From NCBI GenBank assembly GCA_951406725.2, contig OX597824.1, positions 34,100,001 to 34,164,000 of the forward strand: 64,000 nt of DNA, in the 5' to 3' direction. The notes under the pieces were generated by a model. That model ran no database searches and was not told the origin of the DNA. It worked only from the letters and a program-made list of their open reading frames with translations. Source of the stretch: Octopus vulgaris. Its lineage: Eukaryota. Shown here one piece after another: positions 5,496-53,318 of the stretch. The translations under genes and the position numbers were made by a program. Every line of letters begins with the position of its first letter. Position 1 is the first letter of the stretch.

Positions 5496-5580
5496 GTAGG
5501 TCCCGGGTTGAGTCGGGGTTAACCACAGTAAATAAGATACTCAATACATTGCAGAGTAAATTAATATATTTTATAGAAGG

Positions 5581-5631
5581 AGCTTCTACAGAACTAGTAC
5601 TGTTTCATTCAAATGAAATCATCAGGAAGCT
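5581..5631 (-). ncRNA. Type I hammerhead ribozyme (left arm)
   Basis: Minus strand reads AGCUUC-CUGAUGA-U-UUC-AUUU-GAA-U-GAAA-CAG-UACUAGUU-CUG-UA^-GAAGCU. Confidence 0.8.
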
Positions 5632-5678
5632 TCCTGATGATTTCATTTGAATGAAACAGTACTAGTCCTGTAGAAGCT
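5628..5678 (+). ncRNA. Type I hammerhead ribozyme (right arm)
   Basis: AGCUUC-CUGAUGA-U-UUC-AUUU-GAA-U-GAAA-CAG-UACUAGUC-CUG-UA^-GAAGCU. Stem I is AGCUUC/GAAGCU, stem III is ACAG/CUGU, and the predicted GUA cut is after 5672. Confidence 0.8.
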
Positions 5679-5689
5679 CCTTCTATAAA

Positions 5690-5745
<56 letters not shown>

Positions 5746-5748
5746 CAT

Positions 5749-6165
5749 AGGTGCATGAGTGGCTGTGTGGTAAGTAGCTTGCTTACATGGTTTTGAGTTC
5801 AGTCCCACTGTGTGACACCTTGGGCAAGTGACACCTTGGGCCGATCAAAGCCTTTTGAGTTGATTTGGTCAGTGAATTTTGTTAACTGAAACTGAAAGAA
5901 GTCTGTCCTCGAAATCAAATTCGATGACTGGCATTCGTGCTAGTGAAGCGCTAAGAGTACCATACAAGTGAGATCATTGCCAGAGCACCAGCTGGCCTCC
6001 ATGCCGATGGCACATAAAAAAAAACACCATTCAAGCGTGATCGTTACCTACATTGCCTTACTGACACTTGTGCTGGTGGCACGTGAAAAAAATTTCGAGC
6101 GAGGTCGTTGCCAGTACCACCTGACACCCAATTGACTGAAATAAGTAACAGAGTAAAAGAGTAAT
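5749..6165 (+). mobile_element. tRNA-headed SINE (chimeric body)
   Basis: Family A head (GTGGCTGTGTGGTAAG...GAGTTCAGTCCCACTG) and tail (GACTGAAATAAGTAACAGAGTAAAAGAG). Confidence 0.65.
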
Positions 6166-6317
6166 ATGTGTGTGTGTGTGTGTGTGTATGTATATATATA
6201 TATATATGCCAGCAATACCTCGACTGGCTTCCGTGCCGGTGGCACATAAAATACACCAATTCGACCGTGGCCGTTGCCAGCCTCGCCTGGCACCTGTGCA
6301 CCCACTACACTCACCCA

Positions 6318-6821
6318 TATGCAAATGGTCATGAATGATAGTTTCCACAGACCCAGTACTAATCTTGACCTGATGGGCTATTTGGCTAATTGTTATGCGT
6401 TGATCTTCCAAAATGGCAGCTTCAACTTGACGGACAGATGCCTCATCAATTGCAGAAGGGAGGGGGCGACGAGATCTGGGAGCTGTTTCCACAGAGTTCC
6501 GACCATGTTTGAATTCATGATGCCAGCGTTTTACAAGGTCATATGATGGGGCATCATCACCATAAGTTACTTTCATTTCATCAAAAGTCTCCTGTGGTGT
6601 GCGTCCTTTCAAATACAAAAACCAGATCACTGCTCGACACTCAACAGGCTCCATTTCACACTTGACTCAGTTCAAATACCTGTAAATCAGAAACCACAAT
6701 CAGTTTAGAGCTGTAATTTGCCGCTTAATCGATGGAGATATACATAATTGCACATGCAAAATTTCAGCTAGATCAAACAACTGCAAGTGGGTCAGGGGGA
6801 TTAGTTATTGAACGTCCCTCG
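6318..6821 (-). mobile_element. Mariner (Tc1/mariner) 5' remnant with transposase N-terminal HTH
   Basis: ORF from 6654 reads MEPVECRAVIWFLYLKGRTPQETFDEMKVTYGDDAPSYDLVKRW...PRSRRP...VETIIHDHLHM. The terminus TA|CGAGGG is at 6816-6823. It is truncated by SINE sequence before the DD34D domain. Confidence 0.88.
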
Positions 6822-20697: not shown

Positions 20698-20919
20698 CGT
20701 CGTGTTTGTGTATGTGTATGTGCATGAGTAAAAATAACCTTAGTAGTAACCTTCTCGAGTCATACTGACTCATAAGAAGAACCGTCCCAAAAGGGCAATT
20801 TGGGAAACCGTCGTGTTTGTGTATGTGTATGTGCATGAGTAAAAATAACCTTAGTAGTAACCTTCTCGAGTCATACTGACTCATAAGAAGAACCGTCCCA
20901 AAAGGGCAATTTGGGAAAC
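20693..20919 (+). repeat. Exact 111-bp tandem duplication at the LINE 5' junction
   Basis: GAAACCGTCGTG...GGGCAATTTGG begins at both 20693 and 20804. Confidence 0.93.
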
Positions 20920-22885
20920 TTCAGCGGTCCGACTTGCCAGGAGGGAACGTCGGACTGCTGAACGGGAATACAGGTTGCATAAATCAGACACCAACAGGAA
21001 GAAGCGGAATAAATCCTCCAACCATCTCAAGCAAGTGACAAAAAAAGCAGTGCTTGAATTTGAACAGTGCATAGCAGCCAATCCTGACAGCAAGGTTTTC
21101 TGGAAATATGTGCACTCAAAGCAGAGACCTCACTCTCCAGTGGGCCCTCTTCGCAACCCTCACACAAACCAGATCACTGACGACCCCAAGGAATGCGCAG
21201 AACTCATTGCCGAGTGCTATGCAAACATATTCACTGTTGAAAGTCAAAATGTACCATCTTCACCATCACTAACAGCAAACTCCATAACAACTATGGAATT
21301 TACACCTGCAATGCTGCGACGTCACCTTCAAAATAAGCGCAACTATGCCTCCCCTGGTCTCGATGGAGTTACATACCTGCTTCTCAAGCATGGCAGGCAC
21401 TTCCTTTTACACCAGCTTTCTATTTTCTTCCAGTACTGTCTCAACAATGGTGCTACTCCGGAGCAGTGGAAAACTGCCAGTGTCATTCCTCTGTTCAAAA
21501 AGGGCGACCGCACATCACCTGTCAACTATCGCCCAGTCAGTCTCACTAGCTGTATTGCAAAACTGATGGAATCGTGTGTCAGAGAAACACTCTGGAACTT
21601 CTGGAGCTCTCACAGTCTCATCCGACCCTCACAATATGGATTTGTCCCTAACTCCAGCTGCAGTGACCAGCTTGTCGAGTTCCTTGAGGACATTACTCAG
21701 ATTACTGACAGTGGCTCATGGGTGGATGTTGTCTACCTTGACTTTGCTAAGGCTTTCAACTCTGTGCCACACAAAAGGCTTATGGTGAAACTCTCTGCAA
21801 TGGGTGTGGGGGATGACCTTTTTAACTGGTTGAAATCCTTCATCCTCAGCCGAAAGGAGGTAGTCACAGTTCTAGGACAGCACTCTACACCATATGAGAT
21901 GTCATCGGGTGTACCACAGGGATCTGTCCTTGGCCCCCTCTTGTTTGTGGCATACATTAACGACATAGATGCCAATTTAAAGAATGCCACAGTATTGAAA
22001 TATGCAGACGACATCAAGCTGTACCTTGAAATCAAGAGGACAGATCCTGATGTCTACAACTCTTTCCTGCAATCAGACCTAGACACAATGCAGCAATGGA
22101 TCACAGACTGGCAACTGAAACTGGCTGTGGACAAGTGTACCACCATGCATTTTGGGAGAAAAAACCCTGCGTTCACATACTCCCTCCACAACACTGATAT
22201 CAAGAAATCCTCTTGCGAGCGTGACCTAGGCATCACTGTCAGCAGTGATTTGCGTTGGTCAAAGCATATCTCTAAGATTGTCAGGAAGGCCGAGGGTGTC
22301 TTGGCATCACTCAGCAGGTCTTTTGTTAGCCGCTCTCCAGCCATCTATTTAAAACTGTATACAGCTATGGTACGACCACACTTGGAATTTGCATCATCAG
22401 TTTGGAACCCCTATCTTGCACAGAACATTGACCTCCTGGAATCTGTCCAGAGACGTGCAACCAAACGCATACCCTCCATCAGACACCTACCATATTCTGA
22501 GCGCCTTGTTTCCCTGGGCATGGATTCACTGAAGCTCCGGCGTTTGGCGACGGACTTGGTAAACACCCACAAAGTTATCAACCACCTCACCAACAACAAC
22601 ACTGAACACCTTTTTGATCTCCATGTGTCTAACACACGTGGACATGCCTACAAAGTCAGAAAACAATACAGCTCCCATGACTTTCGGAAACATTTTTTCA
22701 CGCTCAGAGTTGCTGAAGCATGGAATAAACTGCCTGCGTCAGTTGTTGACTGCCATGACACTGCATCTTTTAAGGCCCTCATGCTTTCCGAAATCCGCCG
22801 AAACTTCACCTGATTATATATACACTTTAGATGAGTTGTAGTGCACCTGAGCACTGTACACAATTATTATTATTATTATTATTAT
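20880..22885 (+). mobile_element. 5'-truncated CR1-group LINE
   Basis: RT ORF, short 3' UTR with hairpin AGTGC-ACCTGA-GCACT, and a (TTA)n tail at ~22863-22885. No endonuclease domain or ORF1 is present. Confidence 0.9.
20975..22813 (+). CDS. Non-LTR retrotransposon ORF2 reverse transcriptase (N-truncated, uninterrupted)
   Basis: Motifs SPGLDG, PLFKKGD, NYRPVSLTS, QYGF, YLDFAKAF, SGVPQGSVLGPLLF, YADD, RDLGI, VRPHLE, NTRGH..K and FFT.RV...WN.LP are typical of CR1-group RT. The frame stays open upstream to ~20882 (HKKNRPKRAIW) and has no true ATG start. Confidence 0.93.
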   Translation: MHKSDTNRKKRNKSSNHLKQVTKKAVLEFEQCIAANPDSKVFWKYVHSKQRPHSPVGPLRNPHTNQITDDPKECAELIAECYANIFTVESQNVPSSPSLTANSITTMEFTPAMLRRHLQNKRNYASPGLDGVTYLLLKHGRHFLLHQLSIFFQYCLNNGATPEQWKTASVIPLFKKGDRTSPVNYRPVSLTSCIAKLMESCVRETLWNFWSSHSLIRPSQYGFVPNSSCSDQLVEFLEDITQITDSGSWVDVVYLDFAKAFNSVPHKRLMVKLSAMGVGDDLFNWLKSFILSRKEVVTVLGQHSTPYEMSSGVPQGSVLGPLLFVAYINDIDANLKNATVLKYADDIKLYLEIKRTDPDVYNSFLQSDLDTMQQWITDWQLKLAVDKCTTMHFGRKNPAFTYSLHNTDIKKSSCERDLGITVSSDLRWSKHISKIVRKAEGVLASLSRSFVSRSPAIYLKLYTAMVRPHLEFASSVWNPYLAQNIDLLESVQRRATKRIPSIRHLPYSERLVSLGMDSLKLRRLATDLVNTHKVINHLTNNNTEHLFDLHVSNTRGHAYKVRKQYSSHDFRKHFFTLRVAEAWNKLPASVVDCHDTASFKALMLSEIRRNFT

Positions 22886-27802: not shown

Positions 27803-27979
27803 AATATATATGTGTGTGTGTGTGTATAAAAATATATATATATTTATATATATATGTGTGTGTGTGCATGTGTGTATAAATATATATATATATGTAGGTC
27901 CCGGGTTGATTCGGGGTTAACCACAGTAAATAAGGTACTCAATACATAGCAGAGTAAAATTAATTTATTATATAGAAGG

Positions 27980-28030
27980 AGCTTCTACAGGACTAGAACT
28001 GTTTCATTCAAGAGAAATCTTCAGGAAGCT
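27980..28030 (-). ncRNA. Type I hammerhead ribozyme (left arm, copy 2)
   Basis: Minus strand is identical to 28027-28077. Confidence 0.8.
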
Positions 28031-28077
28031 TCCTGAAGATTTCTCTTGAATGAAACAGTTCTAGTCCTGTAGAAGCT
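28027..28077 (+). ncRNA. Type I hammerhead ribozyme (right arm, copy 2)
   Basis: AGCUUC-CUGAAGA-U-UUC-UCUU-GAA-U-GAAA-CAG-UUCUAGUC-CUG-UA^-GAAGCU. Predicted cut after 28071. Confidence 0.8.
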
Positions 28078-28093
28078 CCTTCTATATAATAAA

Positions 28094-28141
<48 letters not shown>

Positions 28142-28313: not shown

Positions 28314-28371
<58 letters not shown>

Positions 28372-28572
28372 CAATAATAATTCTCTAAAAGGGATATAGA
28401 CAGTAACTGCTCGATAACATAAGGGACTAAAGCCATCTGAATATGGCTAGGGACAGGGCAGGGTGGTGGGGGTGTTACTGTTGCATTTAGCCCCAGGCGA
28501 ACATCGACGTCACCAGAAAGGCTCGACACCGTCACGGTGCCCTAAACCTGCAAAGGGAGGTAATTCCCCGAT

Positions 28573-28646
28573 GAAGCGGAAACCACACACGGACCATGGT
28601 TTCAAGGTGTATTGCCTATCATCGGCGTGTGGTAGGCCTCCGCTTC
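28573..28646 (-). ncRNA. Type I hammerhead ribozyme, unit 1
   Basis: Minus strand reads GAAGCGGA-GGCCUAC-CACACG-CCGAUGA-U-AGG-CAAUACA-CCU-U-GAAA-CCAUGG-UC^-CGUGUG-UGGUU-UCCGCUUC. Stem III is the palindrome ACCAUGGU and the predicted cut is between 28592 and 28591. Confidence 0.8.
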
Positions 28647-28932
28647 CTCGACGAATTCTCACTCTGCAGGATTTTCTTATATAGATTTTCAAGCAAAATA
28701 CATTTGCTGATTTCGAAAATCTGTTCGAAAGCAATAATAATTCTCTAAAAGGGATATAGACAGTAACTGCTCGATAACATAAGGGACTAAAGCCATCTGA
28801 ATATGGCTAGGGACAGGGCAGGGTGGTGGGGGTGTTACTGTTGCATTTAGCCCCAGGCGAACATCGACGTCACCAGAAAGGCTCGACACCGTCACGGTGC
28901 CCTAAACCTGCAAAGGGAGGTAATTCCCCGAT

Positions 28933-29008
28933 GAAGCGGAAACCACACACACGGACCATGGTTTCAAGGTGTATTGCCTATCATCGGCGTGTGGTAGGCC
29001 TCCGCTTC
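28933..29008 (-). ncRNA. Type I hammerhead ribozyme, unit 2
   Basis: As unit 1, with two extra nt in the stem I 3' strand. Predicted cut between 28954 and 28953. Confidence 0.8.
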
Positions 29009-29294
29009 CTCGACGAATTCTCACTCTGCAGGATTTTCTTATATAGATTTTCAAGCAAAATACATTTGCTGATTTCGAAAATCTGTTCGAAAGCAATAAT
29101 AATTCTCTAAAAGGGATATAGACAGTAACTGCTCGATAACATAAGGGACTAAAGCCATCTGAATATGGCTAGGGACAGGGCAGGGTGGTGGGGGTGTTAC
29201 TGTTGCATTTAGCCCCAGGCGAACATCGACGTCACCAGAAAGGCTCGACACCGTCACGGTGCCCTAAACCTGCAAAGGGAGGTAATTCCCCGAT

Positions 29295-29368
29295 GAAGCG
29301 GAAACCACACACGGACCATGGTTTCAAGGTGTATTGCCTATCATCGGCGTGTGGTAGGCCTCCGCTTC
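29295..29368 (-). ncRNA. Type I hammerhead ribozyme, unit 3
   Basis: Identical to unit 1. Predicted cut between 29314 and 29313. Confidence 0.8.
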
Positions 29369-29487
29369 CTCGACGAATTCTCACTCTGCAGGATTTTCTT
29401 ATATAGATTTTCAAGCAAAATACATTTGCTGATTTCGAAAATCTGTTCGAAAGCAATAATAATTCTCTAAAAGGGATATAGACAGTA

Positions 29488-29523
<36 letters not shown>

Positions 29524-45900: not shown

Positions 45901-47093
45901 TTGACATATTTTAATTAAAAATAAAATTTGGATTTCTGGAAAGATATGACAGCTGTTTTAAATATGAACCATTTATGTTTATACATATTTTATTTGCATT
46001 CTTTTTTAGCTTGTAATTATTCATTGTTTGCTTTGTGACCCATTCTCTTCATTACTGGTGGAACTAGTTAGACCTGAATAAGTCGCTTTTTTCTTTTTAT
46101 GTCAGTGTCCAGAATTTTTAACTCTATTTCTTTTTTAATTTTGCAACTATTAGTGTGGGGAAAAGTCGTTATTTTCAAACCTGGCGTAATTTTCAGCTAA
46201 TTAGTAATAAATTTATTTCAATTTTAAGATTATGAAATAAAACCTTAAAAAAAAAAGTAAACTAAAAGTACTGAAAAGTTTCAGAATATTTAGGTATTAT
46301 TAAAAATGACATGGGTTCAAATTTTCTTGAAGAACCATTTAAAACGTTTTAGAAAGTTAATATTCCTTGCAAACAGAATCAACCTTTAAATTGCCTTGAC
46401 CAGCATTTTCAGACATAACTCTCTCTGAGATGCAGCGTTGAGTATATCCATGAAAAAAAAAAATCACTAATTTTATCTGGTCCCTAAATTATTAAATTCT
46501 TGGCGTAAGAAAACCATTTGGTTTCGTTTTTGATGTCAGAGCAACTTTGTCCAGTATGTGATTGCCATCAGCTGAGACTTTTAGCTTCTAGTTAAAGGTT
46601 CACTTTGACCTGAATATTTTAGAATTTGAAATTATAGACCTTAAATGCTTTCTTCATTTTGGCAAATGGTTGTGTTGTCAAACTGTATTTATCTGAATAA
46701 AGCTGTTCTTGTATGTGATTCTTTGTTTAAAAGCTTTATTTCATTGAATAACCAAGCTCTGACATTAAACTGGTATCTACCTTAATGCAGGTGTAGCATA
46801 TAATGAAATCTCAGTTTGAATTATTCAATTCGTTTAATTCTTTTCATTATTTGGTCAATAATTCAAAGCTTCATGGATTTGATTCTCTATTTTGTTTCTA
46901 TCAGTTTCTATCATTCATCTGCAATGAGCCAGTATATTCTGTTAACCTTGAAAAATTGCTATTGTATTATTTCCTGCTTAAGATATAAATTCTGTTGTTG
47001 CAGTCCACTTTTTTTTTCAACATACCAAACTGGAACCTCATTCATTGCACATTTTATTGATGTTTGTATTTGTCTGCACATCAAAGAAGACAT

Positions 47094-47699
47094 CTTCTAA
47101 ATGTCTGATCATTCAAGATGCCTTCTAAATGTCTGATCATTCAAGATGCCTTCTAAATGTCTGATCATTCAAGATGCCTTCTAAATGTCTGATCATTCAA
47201 GATGCCTTCTAAGTGTCTGATCATTCAAGATGCCTTCTAAGTGTCTGATCATTCAAGATGCCTTCTAAGTGTCTGATCATTCAAGATGCCTTCTAAGTGT
47301 CTGATCATTCAAGATGCCTTCTAAGTGTCTGATCATTCAAGATGCCTTCTAAGTGTCTGATCATTCAAGATGCCTTCTAAGTGTCTGATCATTCAAGATG
47401 CCTTCTAAGTGTCTGATCATTCAAGATGCCTTCTAAGTGTCTGATCATTCAAGATGCCTTCTAAATGTCTGATCATTCAAGATGCCTTCTAAATGTCTGA
47501 TCATTCAAGATGCCTTCTAAATGTCTGATCATTCAAGATGCCTTCTAAATGTCTGATCATTCAAGATGCCTTCTAAATGTCTGATCATTCAAGATGCCTT
47601 CTAAATGTCTGATCATTCAAGATGCCTTCTAAATGTCTGATCATTCAAGATGCCTTCTAAATGTCTGATCATTCAAGATGCCTTCTAAATGTCTGATCA
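47094..47699. repeat. 28-bp minisatellite, ~22 units, in BicD intron 1
   Basis: Unit TTCTAA(A/G)TGTCTGATCATTCAAGATGCC, head-to-tail with no spacers. Confidence 0.97.
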
Positions 47700-50600
47700 A
47701 TCCAAAGCAGGTTATTCAAATATGCACTAACTTTTTAAACAGTAGACATCATCAAAGTGAATATCTTAAGGCATTTTTCAGTGAAATTATAAATCTGTTA
47801 TTGGTGTTATGAAGGGCATCCAGCCATAAAAACGATGTCAAAACACGGAAGCATGGCACAGGCTCCTGCTCAGCCAGCTCCTATCAAACCGTTAAAACCC
47901 ATGCCAGCCTGGAAGGAGGATGTTAAACAATAACAATAAGCATGATCTATATACAGGTCGCCATCCTTTGTTTAGGCCATGTGTGCACTGTACAAATTTT
48001 GGTTTTATTCCAACATGTCAGGTATCTGGTATATTGTTTACATTCTGTAACTTCTAATACCAATCAGTTCCCTATGACACCTTATATTTGACTGACTTAT
48101 TTTTTCAATGACTTAAATGAATTTTCTAATTTTTAAAAATCCCTCTTGATATACCAAGTAAACTGTTTATTACATTGTCTACATGACTGTGTTATCCAAA
48201 ACAACATTCATAAATTCCAGTTGTGAGAATGCACCAACATGATATTTGAGATCACTTTATATAATATATTTCATAATCAAATGACATAAGGCTCATTTTA
48301 AAATATATACAAATGTTACTTTCAGTAAAACAATTTTTGTATTAAAAATCCTAATGGTCTAAGTTCTGAGATCAGTTTCCAACCAAGCAGAAAGTATATT
48401 TTTCAAGTATCTTGTTTCCTTTAAGGTTAATTCTTTTAGAAAATATAATACAAGATGGTTTTTTTTGTAAAACTATTCTTCATTAGTATTTTTTTTTATA
48501 ACCTCATAAATCTTAATTGGTGACTTTTAAACTAATCCGATTTATTCCCCAACCTCTTTTTTTAAACTCCCTGTGCAACTGATACATTTGAGACCTGTAG
48601 CAACATGTAATCTACTGATCAATATATTTTCCAATTGTGATTGCCAAGGCCAGGAAAACAGTCTTAGCTACTAAATGAACTGGTGATATACTCTTTGTCT
48701 ACCCCAACCCACCCCAAGTCAATTCATTAGTCTTTAGCACACTTAGTTTGATTCCCATTTTTGATAATTCCAAATTTTTTAAGGATTTTCATTTACTTTC
48801 AACAATTATAGTGCCAATACATATATCAATGTCATTTCCAACATGTACAGTTGCTCTTTGAAACCCAGTGTGGAAGACATAACCACCTTAACAAACCCAT
48901 TGATGTATTTATTGTAACTCCAACACATTTCTATCTGATGATGTGACAGCCTTAAATCTAATTTAGTAAAATTATACATATCTGAAAGAGCTCAAAGGAG
49001 AGAGCTATTTATTCCTGACAAAAACCTTTTCTAAACGACATTAGTATCCTTAACTCCATTTAACTGTTTCAAATTCATAAAAATGAGCTGCCTTGTGTAA
49101 TTTATGAGAATACCTTTGAATCCAGATTTTTATGTTGTGATAAGTCTAATGCTTTCAACAAGAAGCAATACCTTTTGATGAGTAGCTAATGACATTATCA
49201 CAGATCTTATGCTGATAAAATATTTCCATTTCAAGTTTTGCCATTACCAAAATTATCTGTGTGGTCATAATTCCTGATATTGATATAAACAGATGTTCTA
49301 TGTTTTTACTATTGATGTCCAAAGTTTCATATTGCTGTAGCAAAGTATCATCAGTTTGTATTATATTGGTCATCAAGTGAGTGTGTTTACATTAAGCACC
49401 ATTATTAATTGTCATATTGTATTTATCCCAACCATAGTTGCTGCACACGGTTCTTTACATTCAAAAGCTTTACCCAGCTGCATAGCCAAACTCAGTCTTA
49501 ATCAGCATGTAAAATACATGCAGTGCTAAGGGGTCTTGTCTTGCAAACTACTTGGTTACCTCACTGGTGACAGTGACATGAAAAAGTACTTAGTACAGTA
49601 CTCAGTACACTGTAAAGTGTTTAGTGTTAGGAGGGGCGTCCAACTAGTTACAGAAACTGAAATCTGCGATTGGAACTTGACACAGTCTTCTGATCTATTG
49701 AATCTTGTCAAACCTTCCAACCCATACCAAGCATGGAATATGGACACTCAAAGATGATCACAATTTGGAAACATTTAAAGTAGAAAAAGCAATGTTAAGA
49801 TTGCAATGTTGCATGCAGTTCCTTTCTAATGTAAATAGTTTTCAATGTTTCATTTTCTTAAGGTAATGAGCTGGCAGAACCATTAGCATGCTGAGCAAAA
49901 TACTTAGTGGCATTTCATCCATCTTTACATTCTGCATTCAAATTCTGTCAAGGTTGACTTCGCCTTTCATCCTTTCAGGATCGATTAAATAATAATTTGA
50001 AAACTGGGGTCGATGTAATCAATTTACCCCTCTCCTGAAACTACTGGCCTTGTGCCAAAGCATAAAACCAATATATTTAATCTTTTTGTCTATGGATAAC
50101 AATAACCACTAGCAGTTGAGTTAAACATCTAAATAGTCATCACTATTTTGATCTGTCCCATTTTCAGTTAACTAATTTTGGACACTTCATGAATTTTATA
50201 TTGTTTCATGGAATATATCTACTGGTTTTAGCCGACACTACGTATAAACCTTTGTTTTGTTTTCATGGAAGAAAAAGTATCAGCTGAACTTCAGTCCTCC
50301 ATTGAGATTTCATAAGCAACCACATATTCACTGTGACTCTATGAAGGCACAACTTATAAATCCAATATACATAAGAGCTTAAATAAATTGCTTTGCTTGT
50401 AAAATGCTAAAGTAGAGTAAAGCATCAAAAGAAAATGTTAGCACATAAATAATATTAATTGAACTGACTTAGTTGCTGATGTAGTCATAATTTAACATCA
50501 ATTCTCCATGCTGGCATGGGTTGGATGGTTTGCCAAGAGCTGGTACAAGCTAGAGGGCTGTGCCAAGTTCTATTATCTGTTTTGGTATGGTTTCTCTGGC

Positions 50601-51065: not shown

Positions 51066-53318
51066 GCTTTGAGTAAACATCAATCCACTTACAGAAAGCA
51101 ACATGAAGTGGGTATACGACATGAAGAACGATTTCTTCAGGAGACCCTTTCTTTGGAAGACCAGTACCGGGGTACCATTGGTGAGCTTGAAACTGAGCTT
51201 AAATCTATCAAAGCTGCTTATGATCGCATCACATGTGAAAATGAGCGGCTCAATGCATTGGTTAATGAGAGTCAGCAACAAATGGAAGCTTTAGAACTTC
51301 AACGTAAACAACTGAGAAATGAAATAAAAGAATATAAGGTTCGAGAAAATCGTAACCTTGCTGATTATGCTGAACTGGAGGATGAAAATATAAACCTTCA
51401 GAAACAGTTGTCTCAGTTGCGACAAAGTCAGGTGGACTATGAAGCTTTAAAACATGAAAAAAGAGCTCTTCAAGAGGAAACAGATGATTTAAATACAGAG
51501 TTAGAGGAAACGAAAAATCTTAAAAAAATTATAGAAAGAAATCTTGAAGAGGCTCTGAATTCTCTCCAGCAAGAAAGAGAGCAAAAACACATGTTAAAGA
51601 AGGAGCTTGATCACCATTTAACACGTGAGTCTATGTTCAATTTAAGTAATTTGGCTCACATTGGTGGCTTGAGTGATGGACTTAAATTTAGCAATAACCA
51701 TGATCTTAATCTTAACAGTAGTCATCGAGAAACTAATGATGATGAAAGTGAATCTCAAGATCACCCTGCACTTAAGCGATTAGAAGCAGACTTTGTACAA
51801 CCTCAAAAAGAAAGTATTATTCCTAAGCCTGCCCCAGCCAGTGTTAATGATTTACTTAGTGAAATCCATATGACTGAAGTACAGAAATTACAGCAGCTAC
51901 TTGACCAGAGTGAGAGTGAGAAAATGGAACTTCAGAAAGGTTTGGATGAAGCTCAAAAGATAATGCAAGATACTCAGAAAGATCTTGTTGAACAGAAAGA
52001 ACGGGCTGCTCAACTGAAGTCACACATGAGTGCAATAGCAAATATTAGTGAAGCCGATATTACTTTATCTGAAGGAGAACTTACTGAAGAAGATATTGCT
52101 GAGATTCAGAATGAAACTGACCAAGAAAAGAAAGAACTTCTGCTCTTAAAGCATAACTACAGAATTAACGAAAAGAATTATACTGCAGCCTTGAAACAAA
52201 TTAGTAATTTGCAAGCAGAAATTTCTTGTCTTCAAGAAAGAATACAAATCGCTGACAGTAACAAATCAATTGATCCTGAGGTGAAGGAGAAATTATCTAG
52301 CCTTAATGAAACTGTCATGGAATATGAAGAAACAATAAAAAGTTTACAGAAGGAACTGTCTGGAATGACTGACTCGGCAGACAGTGCCCAAGGTAAACTG
52401 AGTGTTACCCAAGATCAATTGGTTCATATTACAGAGGAGATGGCTCAGCTCTATCACTTGGTTTGTGAAGTCAATGGTGAGCTACCAAGCAGAGTTATGC
52501 TTGATCATGCCAAAAGTGCAGCACAGATGTCTCGACCAGATAATGTACGAGAAGGAAGTGAGGAGAAAGCTGAAGCCTCTCAAAAGACGAATGAAGTAAA
52601 TAATGTAGAAAATGCTGAAACTGGTTCACAAGCTCAAAAGAAAACAAAAGACCTTGTCAGCCAGGATTTGAAGGGAGCAGGAGATCCTACCTCTTGTGGA
52701 AAGTTAGTCGAAACTGTTTTGGACCAAATAAAGTATTTGAGGCGTGCTGTTGACCATCTGCTAGTGACTAGGCAGCGAGAGAGTGGAGATAATGAAAACA
52801 CTGATGTTAAAGAACTACAAGAACAGATAGTGAAACTGAAAGCTATGTTATCAACCAAACGTGAACAAATTGCTACTTTACGTAGTGTATTAAAAGCAAA
52901 TAAATCCACTGCTGAGATCGCCTTAGCTAATTTGAAACAGAAGTATGAGAATGAGAAAGTAATAGTAACAGACACTATGATGAAGTTAAGAAATGAACTG
53001 AAGGCACTTAAAGAAGATGCTGCAACATTTGCTTCCTTACGTGCCATGTTTGCGCAGCGCTGTGATGAGTATGTGACTCAGCTTGATGAAATGCAAAGGC
53101 AGCTTGTTGCTGCAGAGGAGGAGAAAAAGACTTTAAATTCCTTACTTCGTATGGCGATACAACAAAAATTAGTACTAACACAGCGGTTGGAAGATTTGGA
53201 ATTTGACCGAGAGCGCCGTAACATGCGAAGGCAGGGCCGTAGCAAGATTGGTCCCACCAAAGTAAGTTACTACGCTCCATATGAAGAATTTGGTCGAAGG
53301 CAAAAGAGAGACTATTAA
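51066..53318 (+). CDS. BicD: Bicaudal D, coding exon 2 (to stop TAA; alternative donor after 53261)
   Basis: A polypyrimidine tract and TTTAG acceptor precede 51066 in phase 0. Motifs include DYAELEDENINLQKQ, DLLSEI, QLYHLVCEVNGELPSRVMLDH and the conserved cargo-binding end LSTKREQIATLRSVLKANKSTAEIALANLKQKY...LKEDAATFASLRAMFAQRC...LNSLLRMAIQQKLVLTQRLEDLE. The joined product is 836 aa. Confidence 0.95.
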   Translation, partial: ALSKHQSTYRKQHEVGIRHEERFLQETLSLEDQYRGTIGELETELKSIKAAYDRITCENERLNALVNESQQQMEALELQRKQLRNEIKEYKVRENRNLADYAELEDENINLQKQLSQLRQSQVDYEALKHEKRALQEETDDLNTELEETKNLKKIIERNLEEALNSLQQEREQKHMLKKELDHHLTRESMFNLSNLAHIGGLSDGLKFSNNHDLNLNSSHRETNDDESESQDHPALKRLEADFVQPQKESIIPKPAPASVNDLLSEIHMTEVQKLQQLLDQSESEKMELQKGLDEAQKIMQDTQKDLVEQKERAAQLKSHMSAIANISEADITLSEGELTEEDIAEIQNETDQEKKELLLLKHNYRINEKNYTAALKQISNLQAEISCLQERIQIADSNKSIDPEVKEKLSSLNETVMEYEETIKSLQKELSGMTDSADSAQGKLSVTQDQLVHITEEMAQLYHLVCEVNGELPSRVMLDHAKSAAQMSRPDNVREGSEEKAEASQKTNEVNNVENAETGSQAQKKTKDLVSQDLKGAGDPTSCGKLVETVLDQIKYLRRAVDHLLVTRQRESGDNENTDVKELQEQIVKLKAMLSTKREQIATLRSVLKANKSTAEIALANLKQKYENEKVIVTDTMMKLRNELKALKEDAATFASLRAMFAQRCDEYVTQLDEMQRQLVAAEEEKKTLNSLLRMAIQQKLVLTQRLEDLEFDRERRNMRRQGRSKIGPTKVSYYAPYEEFGRRQKRDY

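What the first reader, a model, noticed from the sequence alone, without database searches (positions are those of the whole stretch)
27894..28094. Second twin-HHR palindrome: differences from copy 1 are mirrored in both arms and fall only at ribozyme-neutral sites
Seen: relative to 5564-5695, both arms change together at core position 7 (CUGAUGA to CUGAAGA), loop II (AUUU to UCUU), loop III (UACUAG to UUCUAG) and the distal AT end. All stem and catalytic positions are unchanged. The arms within a copy are more alike (0-1 mismatch) than the same arm between copies. Inference: (a) selection on ribozyme structure, and (b) one arm is copied from the other at each insertion (fold-back synthesis) or homogenised by arm-to-arm conversion. 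This points to a specific replication mechanism.
Basis: partly seen in the sequence, partly recalled or inferred. Interest (0 to 1): 0.85.

Follow-up and report, generated by a model that had tools for sequence, protein, structure and literature searches.

The report
Penelope retrotransposon stub, likely twin-primed
This mirror-image DNA is one of thousands of stubby back-to-back insertions of a Penelope-type jumping gene, a known pattern; the mirrored differences are inherited from different source copies, and the copies suggest that both halves are likely copied separately up to the capped start of one RNA.

Summary
The arms are 66-bp inverted repeats with 0 and 1 mismatch within copies and 6-7 between copies, at N7, loop II, loop III and the AT end.

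Both copies are minimal insertions of a Hydra-clade Penelope-like element (PLE) in (TA)n: 4,403 tail matches genome-wide and an RT/GIY-YIG ORF in long copies. Head-to-head pLTRs with a one-sided tail are published PLE features.

The mirrored changes are subfamily alleles. Arm haplotypes agree in 93 of 98 pairs (shuffled mean 20.7). Private substitutions, catalytic-core hits included, stay unmirrored, so there is no ongoing conversion.

Simple fold-back fits poorly. The tail-less arm is the longer in 15 of 47 copies, and it also occurs alone. Twin priming, as shown in vitro for another PLE, fits better; this scan noted it on other DNA.

New here: copies stop at the ribozyme's first base, with a TATA box starting 29 nt upstream, and 48 of 86 solo copies carry an extra G there. 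This suggests run-off to a capped transcription start. Cleavage is untested, and the palindromes themselves are predicted inactive.

The parts
27894..28030 (-). Tail-bearing arm: 137-nt PLE unit, from the inferred RNA start (A of AGCTTCC at 28030) through the hammerhead to the tail end (GGGACCTAC at 27894)
   Evidence: 98.5% identical to the last 137 nt of the 5,193-nt autonomous unit in L136
27894..27962 (-). One-sided 'tail' (69 nt); in tandem copies it continues into the 5'UTR and ORF; inferred to lie between two RT start sites
   Evidence: 4,403 matches to a 28-mer from it
28027..28094 (+). Tail-less inverted arm (68 nt)
   Evidence: outer end nearly fixed across loci
28027..28030 (.). Self-complementary AGCT shared by both arms: palindrome centre, the first 4 nt of the inferred RNA
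   Evidence: sequence
28027..28077 (+). Type I hammerhead motif: stem I 28027-32/28072-77, core CTGAAGA 28033-39, 3-bp stem II with U.U at 10.1/11.1, GAAAC 28052-56, 4-bp stem III, predicted cleavage after GTA at 28071
   Evidence: sequence; activity untested
27980..28030 (-). Mirror-image hammerhead motif on the minus strand
27879..27893 (.). (TA)n target, left flank
28096..28136 (.). (TA)n target, right flank
5496..5631 (-). Copy 1, tail-bearing arm (a different subfamily)
5628..5695 (+). Copy 1, tail-less inverted arm

Best explanation
The palindrome is a minimal head-to-head insertion of a Hydra-clade Penelope-like retrotransposon in a (TA)n microsatellite, and its two arms were likely made as two separate cDNAs that each ran to the inferred capped 5' end of the same RNA and were then joined. 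Shown: family identity, subfamily origin of the mirrored alleles, locus-specific junctions, and two fixed outer ends 65-69 nt apart. Inferred steps: (1) A TATA promoter in the pLTR starts the RNA at the first base of hammerhead stem I. (2) The element's GIY-YIG nicks both strands of (TA)n. (3) Each 3' end primes RT at one of two internal sites, just after the ribozyme and at the tail end. (4) When priming occurs near the RNA's 5' end, both cDNAs run off after about 68 and 137 nt, often adding a base opposite the cap. (5) The two 3' ends anneal through the self-complementary AGCT, or another microhomology, and are filled in. Priming at the downstream pLTR gives the same shape with arms of up to several kb. 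The template is uncleaved RNA. The ribozyme is constrained in source elements and is predicted to be inactive in the palindromes.
For: Family: long copies carry an ORF starting 40 nt after the tail, with RWR, DKT, YRDD, a CxCx5C linker, a C-terminal GIY-YIG-type motif, and CxxC/CxH, matching the Hydra diagnosis (PMC8557442 section 11); tandem period 5,193 nt. Per-insertion origin: divergent arm pairs with spacers from -10 nt to 9.6 kb and junctions that differ per locus. One template: 93 of 98 haplotypes concordant; locus-private changes shared by both arms in long copies L084, L086, L087 and L094. Two syntheses: of 47 short two-armed copies, the tail arm is longer in 19, the tail-less arm in 15, equal in 13; G-starting solos split 18 tailed and 18 tail-less; long copies L079, L092, L144, L193 and L135 have the tail-less arm longer. 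RNA start: 33 of 65 tail-bearing copies end within 6 nt of the A of AGCTTCC and none at the cleavage site; solos starting there are preceded by G 48, C 13, A/T 25 times, while the element's own base is T, or C in one rare variant (G vs C p=8e-6); a control start 4 nt inside gave 1 hit and no G; only 3 of 35 such solos have a G in the first 20 nt of the 3' flank, so the G is not a duplicated target base; TATAAAT lies at an invariant 29 nt in 60 of 62 long arms while the spacer varies; L236 starts (TA)n-G-AGCTTCC and runs on 1.2 kb into the ORF. Literature: the anole PLE protein nicks and extends both strands, initiates at two internal sites whose interval is the tail, and uses unprocessed RNA (PMC11167929).
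Against: Asymmetric deletion at the centre of a fold-back palindrome after insertion could also make either arm the longer and could leave tail-less solos; I could not exclude this. No RNA 5'-end data: all runs were contigs, none on record as RNA. The cap-G reading rests on recalled knowledge that RTs copy the cap, and the inside-start control had only 1 hit. 38 of 86 solos lack the G. No intact ORF was found: the L076/L136 copies are broken by a frameshift, and Pfam scored neither fragment. Whether one RNA or two RNAs from one source were used is not resolved. The in vitro data are for a Poseidon-clade element, not a Hydra.
Confidence: 0.68

Rival explanations
1. Fold-back (self-priming): one cDNA is primed at the tail end, folds back at its 3' end and copies itself as far as the AT-rich stretch, where it joins the target; later centre deletions create the asymmetries. 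The element is the same Hydra PLE.
For: Perfect arm concordance (93 of 98) and short palindromes or microhomologies at the junctions. Self-priming was proposed for PLE inverted repeats (PMC3846280 passages).
Against: The tail-less arm is longer in 15 of 47 short copies and at least 5 long ones; tail-less solos with the extra G are as common as tailed ones. A zero-spacer AGCT centre cannot form as an intramolecular hairpin. The fixed outer end is explained by a second RT start site (PMC11167929).
Confidence: 0.22
2. A pre-formed palindromic master (MITE-like DNA element or hairpin RNA) is copied whole, and its subfamilies explain the mirroring.
For: 706 loci share the exact centre 16-mer; insertion in TA repeats.
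Against: Junctions and arm lengths differ per locus within each subfamily, from overlap to 9.6 kb; the ends are not inverted repeats (one-sided tail); the sequence is the end of an RT-encoding unit.
Confidence: 0.03
3. Arm-to-arm gene conversion homogenises each palindrome after insertion.
For: A few singleton alleles are mirrored (positions 16, 18, 19, 49).
Against: 47 substitutions remain unmirrored, 12 of them in the core, and no core change is mirrored; conversion would mirror random changes too.
Confidence: 0.04
4. The palindromes are library or assembly chimeras.
For: Recurrent one-arm G losses and other single-base losses suggest consensus errors in this assembly.
Against: Fixed one-sided tail, (TA)n flanks on both sides, thousands of loci, and the junction seen in an independent public run.
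Confidence: 0.02

Closest known systems
Hydra clade of C-terminal-EN Penelope-like elements (Craig et al. 2021, PMC8557442), including Hydra-1_Obim
   Same: RWK-like and DKT motifs, CxCX5C linker, no CCHH, CxxC/CxH around the EN, canonical HHR in the pLTR, (TA)n target.
   Different: A different family from Hydra-1_Obim: its protein differs by eye and its listed HHR is unlike this one; searches of the supplement for this HHR and ORF start found nothing. The unit is 5.2 kb because of a 2.9-kb microsatellite-rich 3' region, against <3 kb described. The tail is 65-69 nt, against 30-40 nt.
Inverted-pLTR insertions of EN+ PLEs (Adineta Pen2/Pen2a, PMC3846280; Fig. 2 legend of PMC8557442; opposite-strand HHR pairs in Schistosoma, PMC4209133)
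   Same: Head-to-head inverted copy, palindrome or overlap at the junction, tail on one end only.
   Different: Here the commonest insertion is the minimal form ending at the ribozyme's first base, often with an extra G; I found no such report.
Anole Poseidon PAc in vitro (Frangieh et al. 2024, PMC11167929)
   Same: Two internal RT start sites bounding the tail, both target strands extended, AT-rich target, HHR cleavage not needed.
   Different: Another clade; its start sites lie inside the ORF, whereas here they lie upstream of it; the sections read (parts 1-2 of 4) do not explain how inverted pairs are joined.
Animal non-LTR retrozymes (Li et al. 2026, 10.64898/2026.07.22.740005)
   Same: Short non-coding type I HHR-bearing sequence related to PLE pLTRs.
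   Different: Retrozymes are head-to-tail tandem units; these copies are head-to-head stubs of an autonomous element, with no evidence that they propagate on their own.
L1 twin priming (recalled, not from a call)
   Same: Both target strands prime on the RNA and the cDNAs join by microhomology.
   Different: L1 gives an inversion without duplication; here the same RNA segment is present twice.

Membership tests
EN+ Penelope-like element | Single ORF with PLE-type RT and GIY-YIG endonuclease | tested here: met
   RT motifs (YRDD) and VY..YIG seen in two natural fragments, alike by eye to the Hydra alignment; 1,173 homologues, best 52%. Pfam scored neither fragment, and the copies read are frameshifted.
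EN+ Penelope-like element | Partial-tandem pLTRs, inverted 5'-truncated copy, one-sided tail | tested here: met
   Tandem in L076/L077/L136; inverted pairs with a one-sided tail; tail longer than the 30-40 nt described.
EN+ Penelope-like element | Type I hammerhead in the pLTR | tested here: met
   Consensus core and three stems present; U.U at 10.1/11.1; no Rfam hit.
EN+ Penelope-like element | Ribozyme self-cleavage | not testable with these tools
   No assay; 0 of 65 copies start at the predicted cleavage site.
Hydra clade | RWK motif, DKT instead of DKG, C-terminal EN | tested here: met
   RIRWRSFFF, SDKTKNIY, EN at the C-terminus; RWR rather than RWK.
Hydra clade | CxCX5C linker, CCHH absent, CxxC and CxH flanking E/N | tested here: met
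   CNCHDKTTC; CDLC..E; N..CMH; a single Cys inside the GIY-YIG core.
Hydra clade | (TA)n insertion preference | tested here: met
   TA repeat directly after the tail in all 65 sampled loci, three of them with an early C.
Hydra clade | Length under 3 kb (general, not strict) | tested here: not met
   Unit of 5,193 nt; the excess is microsatellite-rich 3' sequence.
Hydra clade | Placement in an RT tree with reference Hydra proteins | not tested
   Reference proteins were seen only as text in a supplement; no tree was built.
Non-LTR retrozyme | Head-to-tail tandem non-coding units, each with an HHR | tested here: not met
   The window copies are head-to-head, and the tandem unit encodes an ORF.
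MITE | Terminal inverted repeats and uniform structure | tested here: not met
   One-sided tail, variable junctions and lengths.

The most novel reading that the evidence does not exclude
In this family the hammerhead begins at the capped transcription start, and most genomic copies are 'strong-stop' products: two cDNAs primed from the two strands of one (TA)n cut at two fixed sites, both run off the cap of the same uncleaved RNA and are joined through the self-complementary first four bases. Thousands of copies would then map the start site, the two priming sites and the joining rule, and explain the head-to-head shape of Penelope insertions. A ribozyme 45 nt behind the cap would act as a decapping off-switch, not as the maker of the template end.
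Probability: 0.5. Interest if true: 0.62.

Novelty: new member of a known kind. Interest (0 to 1): 0.36.

Why it matters
How Penelope-like elements make their tandem and inverted insertions, and what their hammerheads do, are stated open questions (PMC8557442, PMC11167929). This family offers thousands of young 200-bp copies with fixed ends. They yield sharp predictions: a capped start at the ribozyme's first base, two priming sites 65-69 nt apart, an uncleaved template, and joining at AGCT. The palindrome itself and its mirrored differences are ordinary consequences of a known element class.

Tried and rejected
Rfam gave no hammerhead hit, only hairpin-type matches below threshold. A DNA search of the genome with the leader returned nothing, since common words are skipped; patterns were used instead.

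The 1,015-1,039-aa ORFs in L082 and L083 are nested APE-RT LINE insertions, not the element's own ORF.

Recurrent loss of one or both G's just 3' of the cleavage site: 499 arms against 8,191 intact, on either arm and rarely mirrored. I considered it as an RT footprint favouring twin priming but do not use it. It is enriched in short palindromes (23 of 180 arms against 2 of 94 long or solo arms, p=0.003) and co-occurs with other single-base losses (6 of 22 against 9 of 96 loci, p=0.034), as expected for consensus errors. No raw-read check was obtained.

Expression: no RNA holder listed; contigs cannot show starts. Nearest-neighbour distances in the 250-nt upstream window of long copies were noisy: the own arm was nearest in only some loci, so haplotype concordance was used instead of a tree. 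No covariation test, because stems are invariant within the family. Dimer folding is predicted (-27 to -30 kcal/mol) but is not evidence of activity.

Full report
OBSERVATION. Both copies exist as described. Each is a 66-bp inverted repeat centred on AG|CT, preceded by a ~69-nt one-sided leader and set in (TA)n. Arms differ by 0 (copy 2) and 1 (copy 1) within a copy and by 6-7 between copies. The between-copy changes fall at N7, loop II, loop III and the AT end, and none in the core or stems (p about 0.008 for 5 sites). The two hammerhead motifs are on opposite strands, pointing outward. A transcript through the palindrome would fold into a -100 to -109 kcal/mol hairpin, against about -7 for the ribozyme fold, so these copies are predicted to be inactive. 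Rfam has no matching family.

WHAT IT IS. The window lies in a 2.8-Gb, microsatellite-rich animal genome; octopus-like is my inference, and earlier scan notes also call it octopus. Pattern counts: 706 exact centres, 4,403 leader/tail matches, 3,423 ribozyme arms in other 5' contexts and 8,191 intact cleavage-site regions. The arms occur as divergent pairs separated by tens of bases to about 10 kb. A tandem locus (L076/L077/L136) shows the full unit of 5,193 nt: tail, ORF starting 40 nt later, a long microsatellite-rich 3' region, promoter-like sequence, hammerhead, tail. [quoted passage not shown] These are the diagnostic marks of the Hydra clade of Penelope-like elements, which insert in (TA)n and carry hammerheads (PMC8557442 section 11). 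It is not the published Hydra-1_Obim (supplement passages). The window copies match the last 137 nt of this unit on the minus strand (98.5% and 92%) and the first 68 of those nt on the plus strand; no other piece of the element is in the window.

MIRRORING. I aligned both arms of 119 two-armed loci. Of 122 pairs found, 3 were dropped as mispaired, one retained locus is present twice, and 17 loci gave no pair. Six diagnostic sites define 12 haplotypes. Arms agree in 93 of 98 complete pairs (shuffled mean 20.7, maximum 35 in 10,000); four of the five disagreements are at the outermost site next to the TA flank. Copy 2 has the commonest haplotype (31 of 98) and copy 1 a rarer one (2 of 98). Mean distance is 0.8 between arms of one locus and 2.6 between loci, with no arm-specific majority base (105 loci). 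The mirrored differences are therefore alleles of different source elements.

SELECTION AND CONVERSION. Of 10 mirrored alleles, 9 avoid the 37 core and stem positions, whereas 27 of 47 unmirrored substitutions hit them, 12 in the core (p=0.012; the one mirrored deletion in stem I was left out as part of the suspect G-loss class). So the fold is constrained in the sources, copies decay neutrally, and arms are not being homogenised.

HOW THE ARMS ARISE. I examined 65 of the first 82 tail hits on contig C1. The 16 skipped had been fetched earlier (12 long, 4 exact short palindromes) and 1 failed the script, so long copies are under-represented. Junctions differ from locus to locus and use 1-10-nt microhomologies or short fillers, which excludes a fixed palindromic master. 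Both outer ends are nearly fixed: the tail end, and a site 65-70 nt inside it (31 of 48 at one base). Among 47 short two-armed copies the tail arm extends further 5' in 19, the tail-less arm in 15, and they are equal in 13. Several long copies also have the tail-less arm longer, and tail-less solos are as frequent as tailed ones (18 and 18 among the 42 matches in the 40 loci fetched from the 48 G-starting hits; 6 others abut an inverted tail fragment). A cDNA folding back on itself cannot give the second arm sequence that the first lacks. Two separately primed cDNAs can, and this is what the anole element does in vitro: both strands nicked and extended, two internal start sites bounding the tail, ribozyme cleavage dispensable (PMC11167929, parts 1-2 of 4 read). 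Later asymmetric deletion at palindrome centres remains an alternative that I could not exclude.

WHY SO MANY STOP AT THE RIBOZYME. 33 of 65 tail arms end within 6 nt of the A of AGCTTCC and none at the predicted cleavage site. Where an arm starts at that A directly after AT-rich flank, the preceding base is G in 48, C in 13 and A/T in 25 cases, though the element's own base there is T, or C in one rare variant; 3 of the fetched G cases may be templated by an inverted fragment. A start 4 nt inside gave 1 hit and no G. The G is not a duplicated target base (3 of 35 have a G in the 3' flank). TATAAAT begins 29 nt upstream in 60 of 62 long arms, with a spacer that varies in sequence but not in length. 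One copy starts (TA)n-G-AGCTTCC and runs on into the ORF (L236). From recalled knowledge that reverse transcriptases copy the cap as an extra base, I infer that this A is the capped transcription start. The short palindromes are then run-off cDNAs whose 3' ends, AGCT, can anneal to each other. No RNA data confirm this.

KNOWN VERSUS NEW. Head-to-head pLTRs with junction palindromes and a one-sided tail, with self-priming as the proposed cause, are in PMC3846280 (passages) and PMC8557442 (abstract, passages, section 11, supplement passages). Opposite-strand hammerhead pairs from truncated PLEs are in PMC4209133 (part 1 of 4 and passages). Retrozymes were compared from 10.64898/2026.07.22.740005 (part 1 of 5 and passages; supplements not seen). 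Searches for twin priming or an untemplated cap G with Penelope, and for octopus hammerheads, gave no paper describing this (listings only). Earlier notes of this scan already read similar insertions, in this genome and others, as known PLE stubs and several as twin-primed; these are unchecked, and I had formed my reading before looking. None of the listed notes mentions a capped start.

VERDICT. A real feature and a new family member of a known kind. The cap/start-site clue is the part worth following. Interest 0.36.

Noticed in passing
G000-wide; e.g. L004, L010, L240-L255: 499 arms lack one or both G's immediately 3' of the predicted cleavage site, usually on one arm only; likely consensus error, but a structure-linked RT or repair footprint is not excluded.
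   Followed up: partly
L076:3523-3714: A short palindromic copy is inserted into a TA run inside the 3' region of a full-length copy of the same family.
   Followed up: partly
L082:4661-7780; L083:4304-7351: Two near-intact APE-RT LINE ORFs (1,039 and 1,015 aa) are nested at the centre of long inverted PLE insertions.
   Followed up: partly
L236 (G000:C15:73.77 Mb): A copy that starts at the inferred cap site and ends inside the ORF after about 1.3 kb, implying priming at an internal ORF position.
   Followed up: partly
L237 (G000:C1:151333500-151334200): A 60-bp unit from the ribozyme 3' half is repeated three times in tandem inside a short insertion.
   Followed up: no
L077:8692-9999 (-): Another ORF fragment with weak RT and GIY-YIG Pfam hits (a different PLE) lies near the tandem locus.
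   Followed up: no
window 20861-22810 (+) and 51066-53315 (+): Stop-free frames of 650 and 750 codons; the first looks LINE-like by eye, the second coiled-coil-like (possible host exon).
   Followed up: no
window 6061-6666 (-): A 202-codon frame resembling a mariner-type transposase N-terminus by eye (recalled motif).
   Followed up: no
window 28370-29488 and 46940-47827: A ~360-bp unit repeated three times just right of the finding, and a 28-bp tandem array.
   Followed up: no
window 13385, 18118, 27167, 28226, 33696, 34200, 47896, 49720, 57224: Nine copies of a 58-nt motif (CCCATGCCAGCATGGAAA followed by GAT repeats), probably 3' ends of a common SINE/LINE.
   Followed up: no
window 2628 (-) and 38241 (+): Two other CTGAAGA...GAAAC matches to a loose hammerhead core pattern; stems not checked.
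   Followed up: no
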